From: a virus
Taxonomy: Duplodnaviria; Heunggongvirae; Uroviricota; Caudoviricetes
DNA: 4,310 nt
Strand: one strand, 5' to 3'
Virus record (IMG/VR): IMGVR_UViG_3300029437_000178
How positions within the stretch are numbered: the first letter of the stretch is position 1; each line of letters opens with the position of its first letter. Below are positions 1,578 through 4,310 of the stretch, in pieces. Position numbers and translations under genes: made by a program. The notes below the pieces were generated by a model. It worked only from the letters and a program-made list of their open reading frames with translations. It searched no databases and was not told the origin of the DNA.

Positions 1578-2480
1578 TTAACCCTCCAGTGCTTTTTCAG
1601 CCAGGGTGATTACTTCAGCGAGATTTTCATCCGTTACTTCACCAAGTTTCCTGGCTCCCTGTTTTTCCAGAATTGCAATAGCTTCTGCCCGGTAACCCCC
1701 TTTTGCTAACTGGAGGATCAACCCTTCAGCTTGTTTGCGTAGTGCCGCGAAATCAATTGTATGGTCATCTTTGGCGTCATGATTCTGGCTGGAATTTGCT
1801 GCGTCTCTGCGTGCAAATTCTTCTTGCAGCTGAAGGTACTCAACACGGTTGATCTCGATATGGCCTTTTTTCAGCATCTCGTTCAACTTGCGTAAGGTGT
1901 GGAGTTCACTGGCTGCTGTGCCGGATACATTTTTGACGTAAAACGGCCCCGTGCGTTCTCCATCTTTGTTACTGGCCTTTTTCGGCTTAACTTCATCACG
2001 CCCATCCGCAGGTGCATCAAGTAGCTGCTCGGCAAAAACACGTCGCTCGCCGATGGTTGGCAGGTCGTCCCAGAACTTAAGGATGTTACGGGACAGGTCC
2101 AGGAGAGCAGGTTTAAGCAGCGCCCTGGCTCGTTTGACGCCCTGCAATGCGCTGTCGAGAGCATCAATCTGAACTACTCGTTTATCGCCTTCAGCATCAC
2201 GGTAGGCAACAGCACGTTGCAGCATGTCTTCTGTGATAGGGGTGGCTACCGGGTAGAAACCAGCCAGTGCGATAACGTCGCTGAACTCCAGATCATCCAG
2301 TGTCATTGCCGCTGACATATTTTCAGTTTCAGTTGCTGTATCCCGACATTCCTGCACTCGTGAAATCGTGTCAGGATGCATAACAATGCCTGATGCCATT
2401 GTGCGGATAAGACGTTCAAGCAGCGCATTATGTTGTGCCAGAAGTTGATTATTAAGTTCGAGACTGGTTTCTAAACTCAT
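1578..2480 (-). CDS. Hypothetical phage protein, 300 aa, acidic and predicted largely helical; likely functional partner of the downstream nuclease
   Basis: 300-aa ORF with SD GAGG 8 nt upstream of the ATG. Its ATG overlaps the stop of the upstream small ORF (ATGA) and its stop sits 2 nt before the nuclease ATG, indicating translational coupling. No Walker A motif and no family signature I recognise. Confidence 0.75.
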
Positions 2481-2647
2481 ACTGTGGTCCTCGCTACAAG
2501 GAGAATGAAAGTGATGATCAGACCGAGCGCAGTGGCAACGGCCAGACCGGTCATCAAATCGAAGTTTTTACGGCGATAACGGAGAACATCGCGCCCCGTC
2601 AGTCGATGGAGGTATTCAGGTTTCATCGGTTGTATTCCTTTTTTCAT
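2477..2647 (-). CDS. Small protein with a C-terminal transmembrane helix (49-69 aa depending on start)
   Basis: The ORF track gives 2477..2686, which begins at a GTG. In-frame ATGs at 2647 and 2626 are more plausible, the latter with AAGGA about 9 nt upstream. The C-terminus DLMTGLAVATALGLIITFILLVA is a clear hydrophobic helix preceded by a basic stretch (RYRRK). Its stop overlaps the ATG of the 300-aa gene. Confidence 0.5.
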   Translation of the reverse strand: MKKGIQPMKPEYLHRLTGRDVLRYRRKNFDLMTGLAVATALGLIITFILLVARTTV

Positions 2648-2743
2648 ATCGGGGAGCACGCTGTGAGGCGGGCAAAGGCTACACACAGCAATTACTTGGA
2701 TGTCAGCGAATGCCTGCTTTTAACCACGTCAGACGAGATGGCT

Positions 2744-2812: not shown

Positions 2813-3337
2813 ATGTCTGAAGAAAAAGGACTTGTACGGCGTATAACTGAGGCGGCCACTAGTGCTGGTGGTGCTTTGAAAGGTGCTGTTGATTTAGCAA
2901 AAGAAGTTAATGCGTTGCAGGTGGATTACAATGTTAAAAGTAAAACTATCGATCTACTTGATAAACTAATTGATGCGCGTACTGGACAATTCGCACTAAC
3001 GGAGCTTTTGAACGAAGCTAAACAGCGCATTGTTGAACTCGAATCCCTTCTGGAAAAGAAACAGGATTGGGATAGTGAGAAAATGAACTATGAAATGTAC
3101 CACCCGATTACCAATACGGTGGTCTATGTACTGAAGCCTACTGACGATCCTGAGTTCAAGCCTCATTATCTTTGTACTACATGCTATGAGTCGGGTATGA
3201 AGTCTATACTTCAATACCATACTTCTAATGCCGCTTATAAAATTCTCAAGTGTCATAAATGCTCCGCTGAATATAAATTTCCCCGAAATATAGAAGTCAG
3301 TGGCAAAACTCCTGCACCGTTACAACCTGCCAGATGA
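2813..3337 (+). CDS. Hypothetical protein, 174 aa: N-terminal coiled-coil-like region plus C-terminal C4 zinc-ribbon-like motif (CTTC...CHKC)
   Basis: Clean 525-nt ORF on the strand opposite to all neighbouring genes, with a weak SD-like GAGAG 7 nt before the ATG. It is visibly AT-richer than the flanks (~40% GC versus ~50% by eye). Heptad-like charged and leucine-rich stretch (LLDKLIDARTGQFALTELLNEAKQRIVELESLLEKKQ) followed by CxxC-x22-CxxC. No similarity I can name. Confidence 0.7.
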   Translation: MSEEKGLVRRITEAATSAGGALKGAVDLAKEVNALQVDYNVKSKTIDLLDKLIDARTGQFALTELLNEAKQRIVELESLLEKKQDWDSEKMNYEMYHPITNTVVYVLKPTDDPEFKPHYLCTTCYESGMKSILQYHTSNAAYKILKCHKCSAEYKFPRNIEVSGKTPAPLQPAR

Positions 3338-3430
3338 TTAGCAGTTCTCTTTGGTGGTGGTGTAGTGGTAGATGCTGAACTTCGGATTGACTCAATGGAC
3401 TGATCTTCACCCCACCCCAAAAGGAACTAA

Positions 3431-3448
3431 GCGCCCCATCGTCGGGGC
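3431..3448. terminator. GC-rich hairpin between the converging 174-aa gene and the leftward leader; possible weak or bidirectional terminator
   Basis: CGCCCC-atcgtc-GGGGCG, a 6-bp GC stem. It is followed by TTTCAACTT on the plus strand and CTTAGTTCCTTTT on the minus strand; neither is a strong U-tract. Confidence 0.3.
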
Positions 3449-3493
3449 GTTTCAACTTGCGTGACTTATCAGTTTGTCGCGGTGTTGTCCTCT

Positions 3494-3578
3494 ACGCTTA
3501 CCGTACGCATACGGACTCGGCGCTTACCTCGATCCCATCGGGTGCTATTTCGTTTTGCCAGGAGTACTGCGGCTTACC
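3494..3578. repeat. Three direct copies of GCTTACC (plus strand) in the ORF-free leader
   Basis: GCTTACC at 3495-3501, 3521-3527 and 3571-3577 (8-mers CGCTTACC twice, GCTTACCT twice); spacing 26 and 50 bp. A palindromic hairpin CCGTA-CGCA-TACGG at 3500-3513 overlaps the first copy. Confidence 0.4.
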
Positions 3579-3593
3579 TGTCACGCGGTTCAG

Positions 3594-3606
3594 TTTGTTA
3601 AAGAGC
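3594..3606 (-). promoter_or_regulatory. boxA-like element in the leader RNA
   Basis: Minus-strand GCTCTTTTAACAA, about 30 nt downstream of the predicted start. It resembles the boxA core (CGCTCTT / rrn-type GCTCTTTAACAA) of Nus-dependent antitermination sites, with one extra T. Confidence 0.3.
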
Positions 3607-3619
3607 CAGTATTAAAAAA

Positions 3620-3652
3620 CGCATTAATTATGCGATATCGTATTTATATGCG
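3620..3652. promoter_or_regulatory. Operator-like palindromes overlapping the -10 and start site of the leftward promoter
   Basis: 15-bp near-palindrome CGCATTAATTATGCG (3620-3634; 6 of 7 symmetric pairs around a central A) and a weaker related site CGTATTTATATGCG (3639-3652) sharing the ATGCG half-site. Confidence 0.35.
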
Positions 3653-3671
3653 TTATGGGATTTTGTGTCAA
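3643..3671 (-). promoter_or_regulatory. Near-consensus sigma70 promoter reading leftward (candidate early-left, pL-like promoter)
   Basis: On the minus strand: -35 TTGACA (plus coordinates 3666-3671), exactly 17-bp spacer, -10 TATAAA (3643-3648). An AT-rich UP-like tract lies upstream (3672-3695). Predicted start near 3636. Confidence 0.55.
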
Positions 3672-3700
3672 TACGAAAATGAATTATTTTGCAAATAAGA

Positions 3701-3725
3701 AAACCGCCCTTGTGGAGAGCGGTTT
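3701..3725 (-). terminator. Intrinsic terminator of the repressor transcript
   Basis: Perfect 7-bp stem AAACCGC / GCGGTTT with an 11-nt loop. On the minus strand it is followed by a U-rich tract (TCTTATTTGC...). It lies 30 nt downstream of the repressor stop. Confidence 0.55.
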
Positions 3726-3755
3726 GATCAGAAGTAAGTTATCAGACTGTAAAGG

Positions 3756-4310
3756 TTAGTACATACGTAGCGCGGATTTGGCGATCCCCGCCACGTAATG
3801 GATTTTTTCAATGTTTTCGCGTGGTACTCTGACTGGTGGATGATCTTCATTTACAGACATTAGATGGAACAGGCCATCGCGTTCGAACAAGAAGGTTTTA
3901 ACCATGACCTCACCTTCCCGGGTAACCACAAGTACTTCATCACCAGNNNNNNNNNNAGTCGTGGTTGGGTTCGACGATTACGAACTCCCCCTCTTTGATT
4001 CTAGGCATCATTGAATCACCAACACATTTCAGGGCGTATGCATCTTCATCCTTTGTCGGCCAGTATATGAAACCATCACTGCTACCTACTGAATATTGGG
4101 TGTCGCTCCAAAGTCCTCCAACGCCTAGCTGAGTGTTTCCCAAAACAGGTACTTTATTAAACCTAAGAGAAATATACGTTTTTATACCTGTCGCGTCCTC
4201 TTTCTCCATTTCTTGAAGGCTCCTTTCTGCCAAGTCTATTGGTGACACGTGGAAGTAGTCGGCGATCTGCTTTAACGTTGCGTATTTCGGATCTTTCACC
4301 TCTCCTGATA
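3756..4310 (-). CDS. LexA/CI-type repressor (S24 peptidase family); interrupted by a 10-N gap, and the 5' end probably lies beyond the window
   Basis: Minus-strand ORF 3940..4299 translates to an N-terminal HTH-like segment (TLKQIADYFHVSPIDLAE), a linker (VPVLGNTQLGVGG), then GDSMMP (Ser nucleophile motif) and EGEFVIVEP. After the N-run the other frame continues GDEVLVVTREGEVMVKTF...IHYVAGIAKSALRMY to TAA at 3758..3756, carrying the Lys of the Ser-Lys dyad and aligning by eye with LexA (DGDLLAVHK...VTVKRL). The track's stop at 3940 is an artefact of the gap. The start in the track is a GTG at 4299, and the frame stays open to the window end. Confidence 0.85.
3947..3956. other. Assembly gap (10 N) inside the repressor gene
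   Basis: Run of n characters. Flanking coding frames differ by one position, so the true gap length is not a multiple of 3 or is not exactly 10. Confidence 0.95.

What the first reader, a model, noticed from the sequence alone, without database searches (positions are those of the whole stretch)
3431..3640. Possible ~200-nt non-coding transcript between the leftward promoter and the GC hairpin
If the hairpin at 3431-3448 terminates leftward transcription, the promoter at 3643-3671 would make a ~200-nt RNA. Its longest ORFs are only 10-13 codons by my reading, and it contains stable hairpins, including CCGUA-UGCG-UACGG with a UNCG-type tetraloop, plus the repeated heptamer. It would end where the 174-aa gene's transcript arrives from the other side. 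Candidate phage small RNA or cis-regulatory leader.
Basis: inference. Interest (0 to 1): 0.45.

Follow-up and report, generated by a model that had tools for sequence, protein, structure and literature searches.

The report
Phage early-leader antiterminator RNA with boxA
The interval is not a free-standing small RNA but the conserved, folded leader RNA of a prophage's early-left operon; it starts with a ribosomal-type boxA and sits exactly where sister phages carry the HK022-type put antiterminator RNA, so it is probably a second, undescribed kind of RNA that makes RNA polymerase ignore terminators.

Summary

They belong to one conserved cassette (window 3432-3606, minus strand):
- a perfect boxA, GCTCTTTAACA
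- a ~130-nt four-helix domain (P1-P4)
- a GC hairpin (P5)

The cassette occurs in about 170 related prophage loci from Enterobacterales. 27 of 35 base pairs show compensatory changes.

In every locus it follows a sigma-70-type early promoter. In most relatives a strong intrinsic terminator directly precedes the first gene of the replication operon.

In sister phages with the same flanking DNA, a homologue of HK022/HK639 putL occupies the same slot. This holds in two unrelated phage backgrounds.

Best reading: a cis-acting processive antiterminator leader RNA, probably helped by host Nus factors. It is not a put member and not a lambda nut site. It is absent from Rfam, and neither of two diagnostic stretches of its sequence occurs in the searchable paper library.

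The GC hairpin is part of the cassette and is not a convincing terminator. A discrete ~200-nt RNA is possible but unproven.

Activity is inferred, not shown.

The parts
3643..3671 (-). Early-left (PL-like) promoter: -35 TTGACA at 3666-3671, 17-nt spacer, -10 TATAAA at 3643-3648. The inferred start of transcription is near 3636.
   Evidence: Sequence. Relatives with unrelated immunity regions each have a TTGAC(A/G/C)-17-nt promoter 45-110 nt upstream of boxA. The tool's scan did not list the site because the last -10 base is A.
3620..3634 (.). 15-bp palindrome CGCATTAATTATGCG at about +2 to +16, followed by T6 on the minus strand. Probably a repressor or Cro operator. As RNA it would form a weak hairpin with a U6 tail.
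   Evidence: The motif TTATGCG(A/T)TAT recurs in the repressor-cro intergenic region of phage 689R2. This is inference only.
3595..3606 (-). boxA, GCTCTTTAACAA. It is a perfect match to the gamma-proteobacterial consensus GYTCTTTAANA.
   Evidence: Sequence. Consensus from PMC5725501. Invariant in alignments A1 and A2. Yersinia phages have GCTCTTTAACAATTT at this position, which from memory is identical to the E. coli rrn boxA. Mosaic junctions between immunity modules fall right at boxA.
3580..3586 (-). P1, 5' strand (GCGUGAC). It pairs with 3459-3465.
   Evidence: Six of 7 pairs show compensatory changes: GCAUGAC/GUCAUGC, GAGUGAC/GUCACUC, GCACUG/CAGUGC and GCACCGG/CCGGUGC.
3566..3573 (-). P2, 5' strand (GCCGCAGU). 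It pairs with 3476-3483, with two mismatches in this copy.
   Evidence: Six of 8 pairs covary. Types C and D keep the helix with different sequences. It is recovered de novo in type D as UYGCAU/AUGCRA.
3544..3562 (-). Most conserved stretch, CCUGGCAAAACGAAAUAGC. The first bases (UCCU, 3560-3563) pair with AGGA at 3488-3491 to form P2a. The rest is an A-rich junction strand.
   Evidence: Identical in E. coli and Yersinia phages. Used as a search pattern. Variants are listed. P2a was predicted independently.
3526..3543 (-). P3 hairpin ACC-CGAU-GGG-AUCG-A-GGU, with a conserved bulged A.
   Evidence: All 7 pairs covary, with 99.8% of cells paired. Examples: GCC-GCGA..UCGC-A-GGC, GCC-GGUA..UACC-A-GGC, GGC-CAAUCC..GGAUUG-A-GUC.
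3494..3523 (-). P4 is absent in type D.
   Evidence: Compensatory changes: GCAC/GUGU in L046 and CCGUG-UGCG-CACGG in L056.
3476..3491 (-). AGGA (3488-3491, P2a 3' strand, within the conserved AGAGGAC at 3487-3493) and the P2 3' strand (3476-3483).
3459..3465 (-). P1, 3' strand (GUCACGC).
3432..3449 (-). It is the last element of the exchangeable cassette. It may also stop the convergent 174-aa gene.
   Evidence: Conserved at a fixed distance in types A and B. Type D has its own covarying hairpin at this position. Homology to relatives carrying other inserted genes starts at 3420. No adequate U-tract.
2813..3337 (+). 174-aa gene on the opposite strand. It is a swappable insertion (a 'moron', a non-essential gene carried in a phage operon) between the leader cassette and the operon.
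   Evidence: Absent in Yersinia phage YeP4 and in minimal loci. Other + strand genes replace it in 689R2 and L046. No family match.
2651..2695 (-). Remnant of the intrinsic terminator that precedes the operon in relatives. Only the 5' half (UUGCUGUGUGUAGCCUUUGCCCGCCUCA) is present. A 38-nt deletion, with its junction between 2663 and 2664, removed the 3' half and the U-tract.
   Evidence: Comparison with L019, L155 and 40 other loci. All E. coli genomes that match across this junction carry the extra 38 nt.
2477..2626 (-). First gene of the early-left operon: a 49-aa protein with a C-terminal hydrophobic segment that looks like a transmembrane helix (by eye). It is followed by the 300-aa gene and the DUF2800 nuclease gene.
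   Evidence: DUF2800 match.
3701..3725 (-). Intrinsic terminator of the repressor gene, just upstream of the early-left promoter.
   Evidence: S24 repressor.

Best explanation
Window 3432-3606 (minus strand) is a cis-acting antiterminator RNA cassette in the leader of the prophage's early-left (PL-like) operon.

Proposed sequence of events:
1. When the S24-type repressor is removed, sigma-70 RNA polymerase starts near 3636.
2. The nascent RNA first exposes a consensus boxA. By analogy with rrn, suhB and CRISPR leaders, boxA recruits the host proteins NusB and NusE(S10), together with NusG, NusA and SuhB.
3. The RNA then folds into a conserved four-helix domain (P1, P2/P2a, P3, P4) followed by hairpin P5.
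4. The modified elongation complex becomes resistant to termination. It reads through the hairpins and the strong intrinsic terminator that precede the first operon gene in relatives.
5. It also reads through Rho-sensitive untranslated RNA. In this window that is about 1 kb, including the antisense of the inserted 174-aa gene. The replication genes (49-aa protein, 300-aa protein, DUF2800 nuclease, DUF2815, DNA polymerase) are then expressed.

Shown here:
- conservation of the cassette and covariation in its helices
- the boxA match to consensus
- a promoter-like site upstream in every immunity type
- terminators downstream in relatives
- clean replacement of the cassette by put in sister phages

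Inferred, not shown:
- the antitermination activity itself
- dependence on Nus factors
- persistence of the RNA on the polymerase
For: 1. Family and structure.
- The element was found in about 90 viral contigs, 41 metagenome contigs and 104 of 5426 complete E. coli genomes. It also occurs in Trabulsiella, Pantoea, Sodalis and Yersinia phages.
- There are four sequence types.
- 93.3% of cells are paired, against 21-37% when partners are slid by 1-3 columns. 27 of 35 pairs have compensatory changes, and 0 of 500 shuffles reach the observed values.
- The same architecture was recovered de novo from a MAFFT alignment of type D sequences.

2. boxA.
- GCTCTTTAACA matches GYTCTTTAANA exactly and is invariant.

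3. Promoters.
- Unrelated immunity modules each place a TTGAC-17-nt promoter 45-110 nt upstream. The mosaic junction falls at boxA.

4. Terminators.
- In 52 of 62 distinct relatives a hairpin followed by a T-tract lies downstream of the element on the sense strand. In most of the loci aligned this is a strong canonical terminator just before the first gene.
- In minimal loci the T-tract directly abuts the Shine-Dalgarno sequence and ATG of the first gene. This leaves no room for another promoter.
- The distance from the element to the terminator ranges from about 100 to more than 800 nt. Action over such varying distances points to processive action.

5. Replacement by put.
- 79 loci encode a DUF2800 protein at least 80% identical to the window's. 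Of these, 50 carry the boxA cassette and 22 carry a putL homologue in the same slot.
- L215 (put) and L018 (boxA) share 89.6% identity over 695 nt, ending 4-5 nt before the cassettes.
- The same swap occurs in a lambdoid background. Phage HK639 has an annotated putL-like antiterminator RNA. The prophage in E. coli ABWA45 has the boxA cassette between homologous flanks.

6. No partner protein.
- No protein-coding gene within about 5 kb is specific to the boxA type.
- No N-like gene is evident.
Against: - There is no experimental or transcript evidence for a start site, for read-through or for Nus-factor binding.
- From memory, boxA/Nus complexes without lambda N are reported to act mainly against Rho and poorly on intrinsic terminators. 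The key step therefore rests on the uncharacterised RNA domain.
- In this particular window the downstream terminator is deleted, so the local need for antitermination is reduced to Rho-dependent events and the weak P5 hairpin.
- The -10 hexamer ends in A rather than T.
- The single-sequence fold is not unusually stable.
- The large covariation count was made on an alignment fitted to the model, which leans towards the modelled structure.
- A distal phage-encoded partner protein cannot be excluded.
Confidence: 0.7

Rival explanations
1. The promoter produces a discrete ~190-210-nt non-coding RNA that ends at the GC hairpin. This RNA is the functional product: a trans-acting small RNA, or a countertranscript that affects the 174-aa gene.
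For: - The GC hairpin is conserved at a fixed distance from P1.
- In relatives, transcripts that fail to antiterminate would end at nearby terminators and could accumulate. From memory, lambda 6S RNA made from PR' is a comparable case.
- There is no sense-strand ORF.
Against: - The hairpin lacks a U-tract here and in most relatives.
- The 174-aa gene is a swappable insertion, absent from many relatives.
- The element is always found in cis, upstream of the early operon.
- It is interchangeable with put, a cis-acting element.
- It begins with boxA, a signal that acts during transcription.
Confidence: 0.08
2. boxA alone provides Nus-factor protection against Rho in the long untranslated leader. 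The structured domain has a different job, such as RNA stability, processing, or binding a host or phage factor that times lytic development.
For: - boxA alone is sufficient to prevent Rho termination in rrn-derived constructs and CRISPR leaders (PMC5725501 and PMC7665894).
- The untranslated stretch here is about 1 kb.
- Deletion variants between the GGTAAGC repeats keep boxA (L025, L065, L078).
Against: - Strong intrinsic terminators sit directly before the first gene in relatives. From memory, boxA-only complexes handle intrinsic terminators poorly.
- The whole cassette, boxA through P5, is exchanged as one unit for put.
- Strong purifying selection and covariation act on about 130 nt of structure.
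Confidence: 0.14
3. A riboswitch-like or protein-responsive attenuator. The domain senses a ligand or protein and controls formation of the adjacent hairpin or terminator locally.
For: - It is a multi-helix junction with a highly conserved single-stranded segment closed by P1, followed within 8 nt by a GC hairpin.
Against: - There is no conserved alternative pairing between P1 and P5.
- P5 is not a terminator in most relatives.
- The real terminators lie 100-800 nt away, and the sequence in between varies.
- No Rfam family matches.
Confidence: 0.05
4. A protein-coding or DNA-level feature: the 46-74-codon ORFs on the + strand, or iterons or binding sites formed by the heptamer.
For: - One + strand ORF is annotated in phage 689R2.
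- The heptamer occurs three times.
Against: - The reading frame is not conserved between types, and indels are not multiples of three.
- The heptamers are not conserved in types B-D.
- Compensatory base changes indicate selection on RNA pairing.
Confidence: 0.02

Closest known systems
put RNAs of phages HK022 and HK639 (putL, putR)
   Same: - Sits directly behind the early-left promoter.
- Cis-acting, structured and non-coding.
- Followed by terminators and a long operon.
- No N-like protein gene nearby.
- In two phage backgrounds the two elements occupy the identical slot between homologous flanks.
   Different: - No sequence or structure similarity. Model R1 scores below 11 bits on HK022 and HK639.
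- About 175 nt with four helices plus P5, against about 70 nt with two stems (PMC9378689).
- It begins with a consensus boxA. The put cassettes read here contain no boxA.
- From memory, put is reported to work without Nus factors.
boxA/Nus-factor antitermination of rrn operons, suhB and CRISPR arrays
   Same: - Perfect boxA consensus.
- Placed early in a long untranslated transcript.
- Expected to bind NusB and NusE and to protect against Rho (PMC5725501, PMC7665894).
   Different: - The phage boxA is fused to a conserved 130-nt domain not seen in those leaders.
- The boxB-before-boxA and boxC-after-boxA arrangement recalled for rrn leaders was not seen on reading the sequence. No search was run for it.
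- The downstream obstacles include strong intrinsic terminators.
Lambda-type nut sites with N protein (nutL)
   Same: - Position in a PL-type leader.
- boxA comes first, followed by RNA structure.
- The logic is processive antitermination. In a lambdoid prophage (L046) the cassette lies where N and nutL would be.
   Different: - There is no 15-nt boxB hairpin with a GNRA-like loop.
- No arginine-rich N-like gene was found in the window or in related loci.
Short terminated leader transcripts of phages (lambda 6S RNA from PR', oop RNA)
   Same: If antitermination fails, a short RNA of about 200-270 nt ending at a leader terminator would be produced from a strong phage promoter.
   Different: From memory, those RNAs are not known to carry a large covarying domain. 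The conserved structure here suggests the RNA itself is the effector.

Membership tests
HK022-type put antiterminator RNA | Conserved put sequence and two-stem structure of about 70 nt | tested here: not met
   The HK022 and HK639 put sequences were read directly and show no similarity. Model R1 gives no hit on either (best scores 9.9 and 10.9 bits, both at other positions). The architecture here is four helices plus P5.
HK022-type put antiterminator RNA | Location just downstream of an early promoter and upstream of terminators and an early operon | tested here: met
   It occupies the same slot as put in sister phages.
HK022-type put antiterminator RNA | Factor-independent read-through that depends on the zinc-binding domain of the RNA polymerase beta' subunit | not testable with these tools
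   This needs in vitro transcription or rpoC (Y75N) genetics.
Lambda-type nut site | boxA element | tested here: met
   GCTCTTTAACA at 3596-3606 matches the consensus GYTCTTTAANA.
Lambda-type nut site | boxB hairpin (about 15 nt, purine-rich pentaloop) a few nucleotides after boxA | tested here: not met
   The next structure after boxA is P1 of a multi-helix domain, 16 nt downstream.
Lambda-type nut site | A cognate arginine-rich N-type protein encoded by the phage | tested here: not met
   No such gene appears in the window, in annotated relatives or among protein clusters associated with the cassette. Only about 5 kb on each side was examined.
boxA/Nus-factor targets (rrn, suhB, CRISPR leaders) | Consensus boxA in the transcribed, untranslated 5' region | tested here: met
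   boxA lies about 30 nt after the inferred start of transcription. There is no credible sense-strand ORF for about 1 kb.
boxA/Nus-factor targets (rrn, suhB, CRISPR leaders) | NusB/NusE/SuhB association and boxA-dependent suppression of Rho termination | not testable with these tools
   This needs ChIP or reporter assays with boxA mutants and bicyclomycin.
   The stem is present. The tail is CUUAGUUC on the minus strand and UUUCAACU on the + strand, and the scan did not call it. Relatives lack a U-tract after the same hairpin.
Any Rfam 15 family | A covariance-model match | tested here: not met
   No match in 3431-3640 even at E <= 10. Rfam also has no match at gathering threshold in HK022 or HK639. 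Absence from Rfam is therefore weak evidence about phage antiterminator RNAs.

The most novel reading that the evidence does not exclude
The cassette is a new class of antiterminator RNA that does the job of lambda N protein using RNA alone. A consensus boxA tethers the host Nus complex, and the attached four-helix domain makes the complex resistant to intrinsic as well as Rho-dependent terminators. No phage protein is needed. Evolution has used it interchangeably with the Nus-independent put RNA.
Probability: 0.45. Interest if true: 0.85.

Novelty: new variant of a known kind. Interest (0 to 1): 0.75.

Why it matters
- From memory, RNA-only processive antiterminators are very rare; put is the paradigm. 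A second, structurally unrelated RNA in the same genomic slot would be a natural comparison for how nascent RNA can reprogram RNA polymerase.
- This RNA carries a ribosomal-type boxA. It could link the put mechanism to the Nus/rrn antitermination complex.
- It would show how a host complex that acts against Rho can be upgraded to defeat intrinsic terminators.
- It explains how a common family of E. coli and Enterobacterales prophages, with DUF2800, DUF2815 and DNA polymerase replication modules and no N gene, turns on early genes.
- It explains how opposite-strand genes can be tolerated inside that leader.
- It offers a compact, portable genetic part.
- It also corrects annotation: the "hypothetical protein" called across this region in deposited phage genomes is very likely spurious.

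Tried and rejected
- **Rfam and tRNA scans.** An Rfam scan of the whole window at E <= 10 found nothing in the interval. ARAGORN found no tRNA or tmRNA.
- **Single-sequence folding.** The fold is not more stable than shuffles, so energy was dropped as evidence.
- **First consensus fold.** RNAalifold on the first mixed MAFFT alignment failed to find the helices because types C and D were misaligned. This was replaced by a hand-derived structure, a covariance model and a separate fold of type D alone.
- **Possible boxA pairing.** A pairing between boxA (GCUCUUU) and the conserved AAAUAGC was suggested. It involves only invariant or transition-variable bases and was left undecided.
- **blastn of types A, B and C against isolated phages.** Only 4 E. 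coli and 3 Yersinia phages matched.
- **mEp021-group phages (Nus-dependent, non-lambdoid).** These were considered. They use an N-like protein, Gp17, with nut sites (PMC11893012). They were not among the records found by the blastn searches of the phage collection.
- **Second copy in the same phage.** A search for a putR-like second copy found none within the loci held.
- **Cassette-specific partner protein.** None found. The only associated "proteins" are spurious ORFs that overlap the cassettes.
- **Genome contigs pattern scan.** Mostly chance matches; only 3 of 58 were true members.
- **Literature.** No paper holds either of the two sequence stretches searched. Topic searches found nothing on this element. 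King et al. 2011 (PMC3187212) is not held, so its content is cited from memory only.
Full report
**Context**

The window comes from an E. coli prophage. Positions 3400-3760 are 100% identical to strain IAI1 and others, and 104 of 5426 complete genomes carry a match. Isolated phages vB_EcoM-689R2, -606R2, -611R5 and -683R1 are 98% identical from position 3420 rightwards.

Gene layout of the window:

| Coordinates | Strand | Feature |
|---|---|---|
| 274-1575 | minus | DUF2800 PD-(D/E)XK nuclease |
| 1578-2480 | minus | 300-aa protein |
| 2477-2626 | minus | 49-aa protein with a hydrophobic C-terminal segment |
| 2813-3337 | plus | 174-aa gene |
| 3431-3640 | minus | the interval in question |
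| 3701-3725 | minus | intrinsic terminator of the repressor gene |
| 3756 onwards | minus | S24/LexA-type repressor gene |

In annotated relatives the minus-strand operon continues into DUF2815 and a DNA polymerase. To the right of the repressor lie a cro-like gene, a primase and a Q antiterminator.

**Checking the observation**

On the minus strand the sequence reads TTGACA (3671-3666), a 17-nt spacer, then TATAAA (3648-3643). Transcription would therefore start near 3636. The scan tool did not report this site, but only because its rule demands T at the last -10 position.

- The GC hairpin is real: stem 3432-3437 with 3444-3449.
- Its tail is not a proper U-tract on either strand, and the scan did not call it.
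- The CCGUA-UGCG-UACGG hairpin lies at 3501-3514.
- The heptamer occurs three times within 83 nt. Only 0.42 copies are expected in the whole window.
- Sense-strand ORFs: ATG ORFs of 8 and 13 codons, plus a 28-codon GTG ORF without a Shine-Dalgarno sequence.
- The + strand ORFs of 46-74 codons change frame between sequence types. Indels of 1 and 2 nt occur among variants. They are not coding.
- The predicted fold of the single sequence is no more stable than shuffled controls.

**What the interval is**

Read as RNA, the leader contains GCUCUUUAACAA at 3606-3595. This is a perfect match to the boxA consensus GYTCTTTAANA derived by Baniulyte et al. (PMC5725501).

Yersinia phages YeP4-6 have no 174-aa gene. 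The homologous leader there lies directly between the repressor and the first operon gene. It carries GCTCTTTAACAATTT, which from memory is identical to the E. coli rrn boxA. It also carries an identical 19-mer, CCTGGCAAAACGAAATAGC.

Pattern searches anchored on these two motifs recovered:
- about 90 IMG/VR contigs
- 41 metagenome contigs, all confirmed by the covariance model
- species representatives of Trabulsiella, Sodalis and Pantoea

The sequences fall into four types (A-D) that differ extensively yet keep the same helices.

**Structure**

I derived the structure by hand from compensatory differences. In window coordinates, minus strand:

| Element | Coordinates |
|---|---|
| P1 | 3580-3586 with 3459-3465 |
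| P2 | 3566-3573 with 3476-3483 |
| P2a | 3560-3563 with 3488-3491 |
| Conserved A-rich junction | within 3544-3562 |
| P3, with a bulged A | 3526-3543 |
| P4 | 3494-3523 |
| P5 | 3432-3449 |

A covariance model was built from 30 type-A sequences with this structure.
- It found exactly one copy per locus.
- It recovered types B, C and D, at 105-116, 82-95 and 28-31 bits respectively.

On the resulting alignment:
- 93.3% of cells are paired, against 21-37% when partners are slid by 1-3 columns.
- 27 of 35 pairs carry compensatory changes.
- No shuffle out of 500 reaches the observed values.

That alignment is fitted to the model, so I checked independently. RNAalifold on a plain MAFFT alignment of seven type-D sequences predicts the same P1, P2, P2a, P3 with bulged A, and P5.

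Individual examples:
- P1: GCGUGAC/GUCACGC, GCAUGAC/GUCAUGC, GAGUGAC/GUCACUC, GCACCGG/CCGGUGC
- P3: ACC/GGU changed to ACU/AGU
- P4: CCGUA..UACGG changed to CCGUG..CACGG

The heptamers are the junctions that follow P1, P3 and the P4 tip in type A only; they are not conserved in the other types. Deletion variants exist between the heptamer copies (L025, L065, L078).

**Which strand is the RNA**

Every immunity type supplies its own TTGAC-17-nt promoter 45-110 nt upstream of boxA on this strand. boxA itself is directional. G-U pairs, such as the common G-U at the base of P4, also fit the minus strand. P2 alone would pair slightly better on the other strand. I consider the minus strand settled by the promoters and boxA.

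**What lies downstream**

In 52 of 62 distinct relatives a hairpin followed by a T-tract lies downstream of the element on the sense strand. In most of the loci aligned this is a strong canonical terminator: UUUGCCCGCC..GGCGGGCUUUUUU or GCCCCUCGCAAGAGGGGCUCUUUUUU.

In the shortest architectures (for example L028, L048, L061) the order is promoter, boxA, domain, P5, a second hairpin, then the terminator. The terminator's T-tract directly abuts GGAG and the ATG of the 49-aa gene, about 275 nt from boxA. No separate promoter can fit there, so the operon can be expressed only by read-through.

In other relatives, inserted genes stretch this distance to more than 800 nt. A local alternative-pairing attenuator is therefore unlikely, and processive modification of the polymerase is the likelier mechanism.

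In the window itself a 38-nt deletion (junction 2663/2664) has removed the terminator's 3' half and T-tract. None of the E. coli genomes that match across the junction shares this deletion.

**The decisive comparison**

I fetched 79 viral loci encoding a DUF2800 protein at least 80% identical to the window's.
- 50 carry the boxA cassette.
- 22 carry instead, in the same slot, TCGAACGGCGCGACTCTAAACCATGCGTCGGGACCGTGGCGGGACAGGATGTCGGCAATACGGG.
- This is plainly homologous to HK022 putL, GACGAACGGCGCGTCTTTAAACCATGCGTCGGGAGCGCGGCGGGTTCAGGATGAACGGCAATGC.

The flanks are shared.
- L215 (put) and L018 (boxA) are 89.6% identical over 695 nt, ending 4-5 nt before the cassettes. Homology resumes downstream. 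L204 and L061 behave the same way.
- The 3' boundary of the exchanged block lies just after P5. P5 therefore belongs to the cassette.

The same swap occurs in an unrelated, lambdoid background.
- Phage HK639's GenBank record annotates a "putative pL" and a "putL-like antiterminator RNA".
- The prophage of E. coli ABWA45 carries exo, bet and gam and has no N gene.
- The two share the promoter region (76% over 388 nt) and the downstream region (98.3% over 476 nt). The ABWA45 prophage has the boxA cassette where HK639 has put.

No real protein within about 5 kb correlates with cassette type.

**Interpretation**

The put RNA is a cis-acting antiterminator that binds the zinc-binding domain of the RNA polymerase beta' subunit. 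It suppresses both intrinsic and Rho-dependent termination without protein factors (PMC9378689).

Two elements that replace each other cleanly between the same promoter and the same terminator-guarded operon most likely do the same job. I therefore conclude that the interval encodes a processive antiterminator leader RNA.

Its invariant consensus boxA suggests that, unlike put, it uses the host NusB/NusE complex. That complex protects untranslated RNA from Rho in rrn-type and CRISPR leaders (PMC5725501, PMC7665894). From memory, such complexes are poor against intrinsic terminators. The covarying four-helix domain would then supply that extra activity, much as N bound to boxB does in lambda. 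This last step is inference.

**Comparison with known families**

- It works like put, but it is not a member. Model R1 finds nothing in HK022 or HK639, and the architectures differ.
- It is not a lambda-type nut site. There is no boxB and no N gene.
- It shares only boxA with rrn, suhB and CRISPR leaders.
- Rfam 15 has no match. Rfam also lacks put, so that absence says little.
- Neither of the two sequence stretches I searched occurs in the searchable paper library, and topic searches found no description.
- King et al. 2011, which reported put-like RNAs in prophages and HK639, could not be read. From memory it concerns put homologues only.

**Verdict**

The "small RNA ended by the hairpin" reading is not supported. 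The "cis-regulatory leader" reading is supported and can be sharpened: a boxA-linked antiterminator RNA cassette, apparently undescribed, that alternates with put in Enterobacterales prophages.

All functional claims remain computational.

Noticed in passing
window 2651-2695 (junction 2663/2664): Relative to all related loci and all matching E. coli genomes, this window lacks 38 nt (AGTGACGGGCTTTTTTATGTCTGAAAGCGCACTCGCAA on the minus strand). These 38 nt form the 3' half and T-tract of the strong terminator in front of the 49-aa gene. This may be a natural terminator-loss variant or a peculiarity of the source sequence.
   Followed up: partly
L046 about 3960-4000; L006, L004, L063, L140, L142 (after hairpin P5): Several relatives have a strong Shine-Dalgarno sequence and a mini-ORF of 1-3 codons just after the cassette, often followed by a small hairpin (AGCGGACAGACCGC). 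Examples: AGGAG..ATG AAG AAC TAA; ATG CAG CAG TAA; ATG TAG. The window lacks this feature.
   Followed up: no
window 3948-3957: A run of ten N lies inside the S24 repressor gene. It is a masked or unresolved stretch and interrupts the ORF calls.
   Followed up: no
window 2813-3337 (+): The 174-aa gene is a swappable insertion, convergent with the early-left transcript. Its C-terminus has CxxC...CxxC. It has no Pfam or NCBIfam match. Relatives carry other + strand genes in the same place, including an 'ECs_2282 family putative zinc-binding protein' in L046. The early transcript must run antisense through it.
   Followed up: partly
L025, L065, L078: These are natural deletion variants of the element. 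Their end points lie at the repeated GGTAAGC heptamers, which suggests recombination between the repeats. boxA, P1 and P5 are retained.
   Followed up: no
window 3620-3660; L001 7040-7130: The motif TTATGCG(A/T)TAT(C/G)G occurs twice around the early-left promoter, including the 15-bp palindrome at 3620-3634. It occurs once in the repressor-cro intergenic region of phage 689R2. These are candidate operators.
   Followed up: partly
many type A, B and C loci, about 20 nt after P5 (e.g. L005, L008, L028): A second conserved hairpin module follows P5 in many relatives but not in the window. It has two forms: GCAGTGAATTAATCAAAGGCTTCGGGCCTTTTACTAATCC and GCAGTGAGCTTATATAGCGTCGTTTCGGCGCTTCATTAAGCCC. 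The same module follows put in L191 and L215.
   Followed up: no
window 3544-3551 and 3600-3606: boxA (GCUCUUU) is complementary to the invariant AAAUAGC of the junction strand, at 6 of 7 positions. RNAalifold proposed this pairing. Variation (A/G opposite U) is compatible with it but not diagnostic. It could be a switch that sequesters boxA.
   Followed up: partly
L233 12911-12970 (HK639 record 37910-37969): The HK639 GenBank record annotates an 'M3-like RNA' in the right operon after cII. It shows no similarity to the boxA cassette.
   Followed up: no
L001 6136-6279 (window about 3555-3698, + strand): Deposited phage genomes annotate a 47-aa 'uncharacterized protein' across the promoter, boxA and 5' part of the domain. 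The frame is not conserved, so this is very likely a false gene call.
   Followed up: yes
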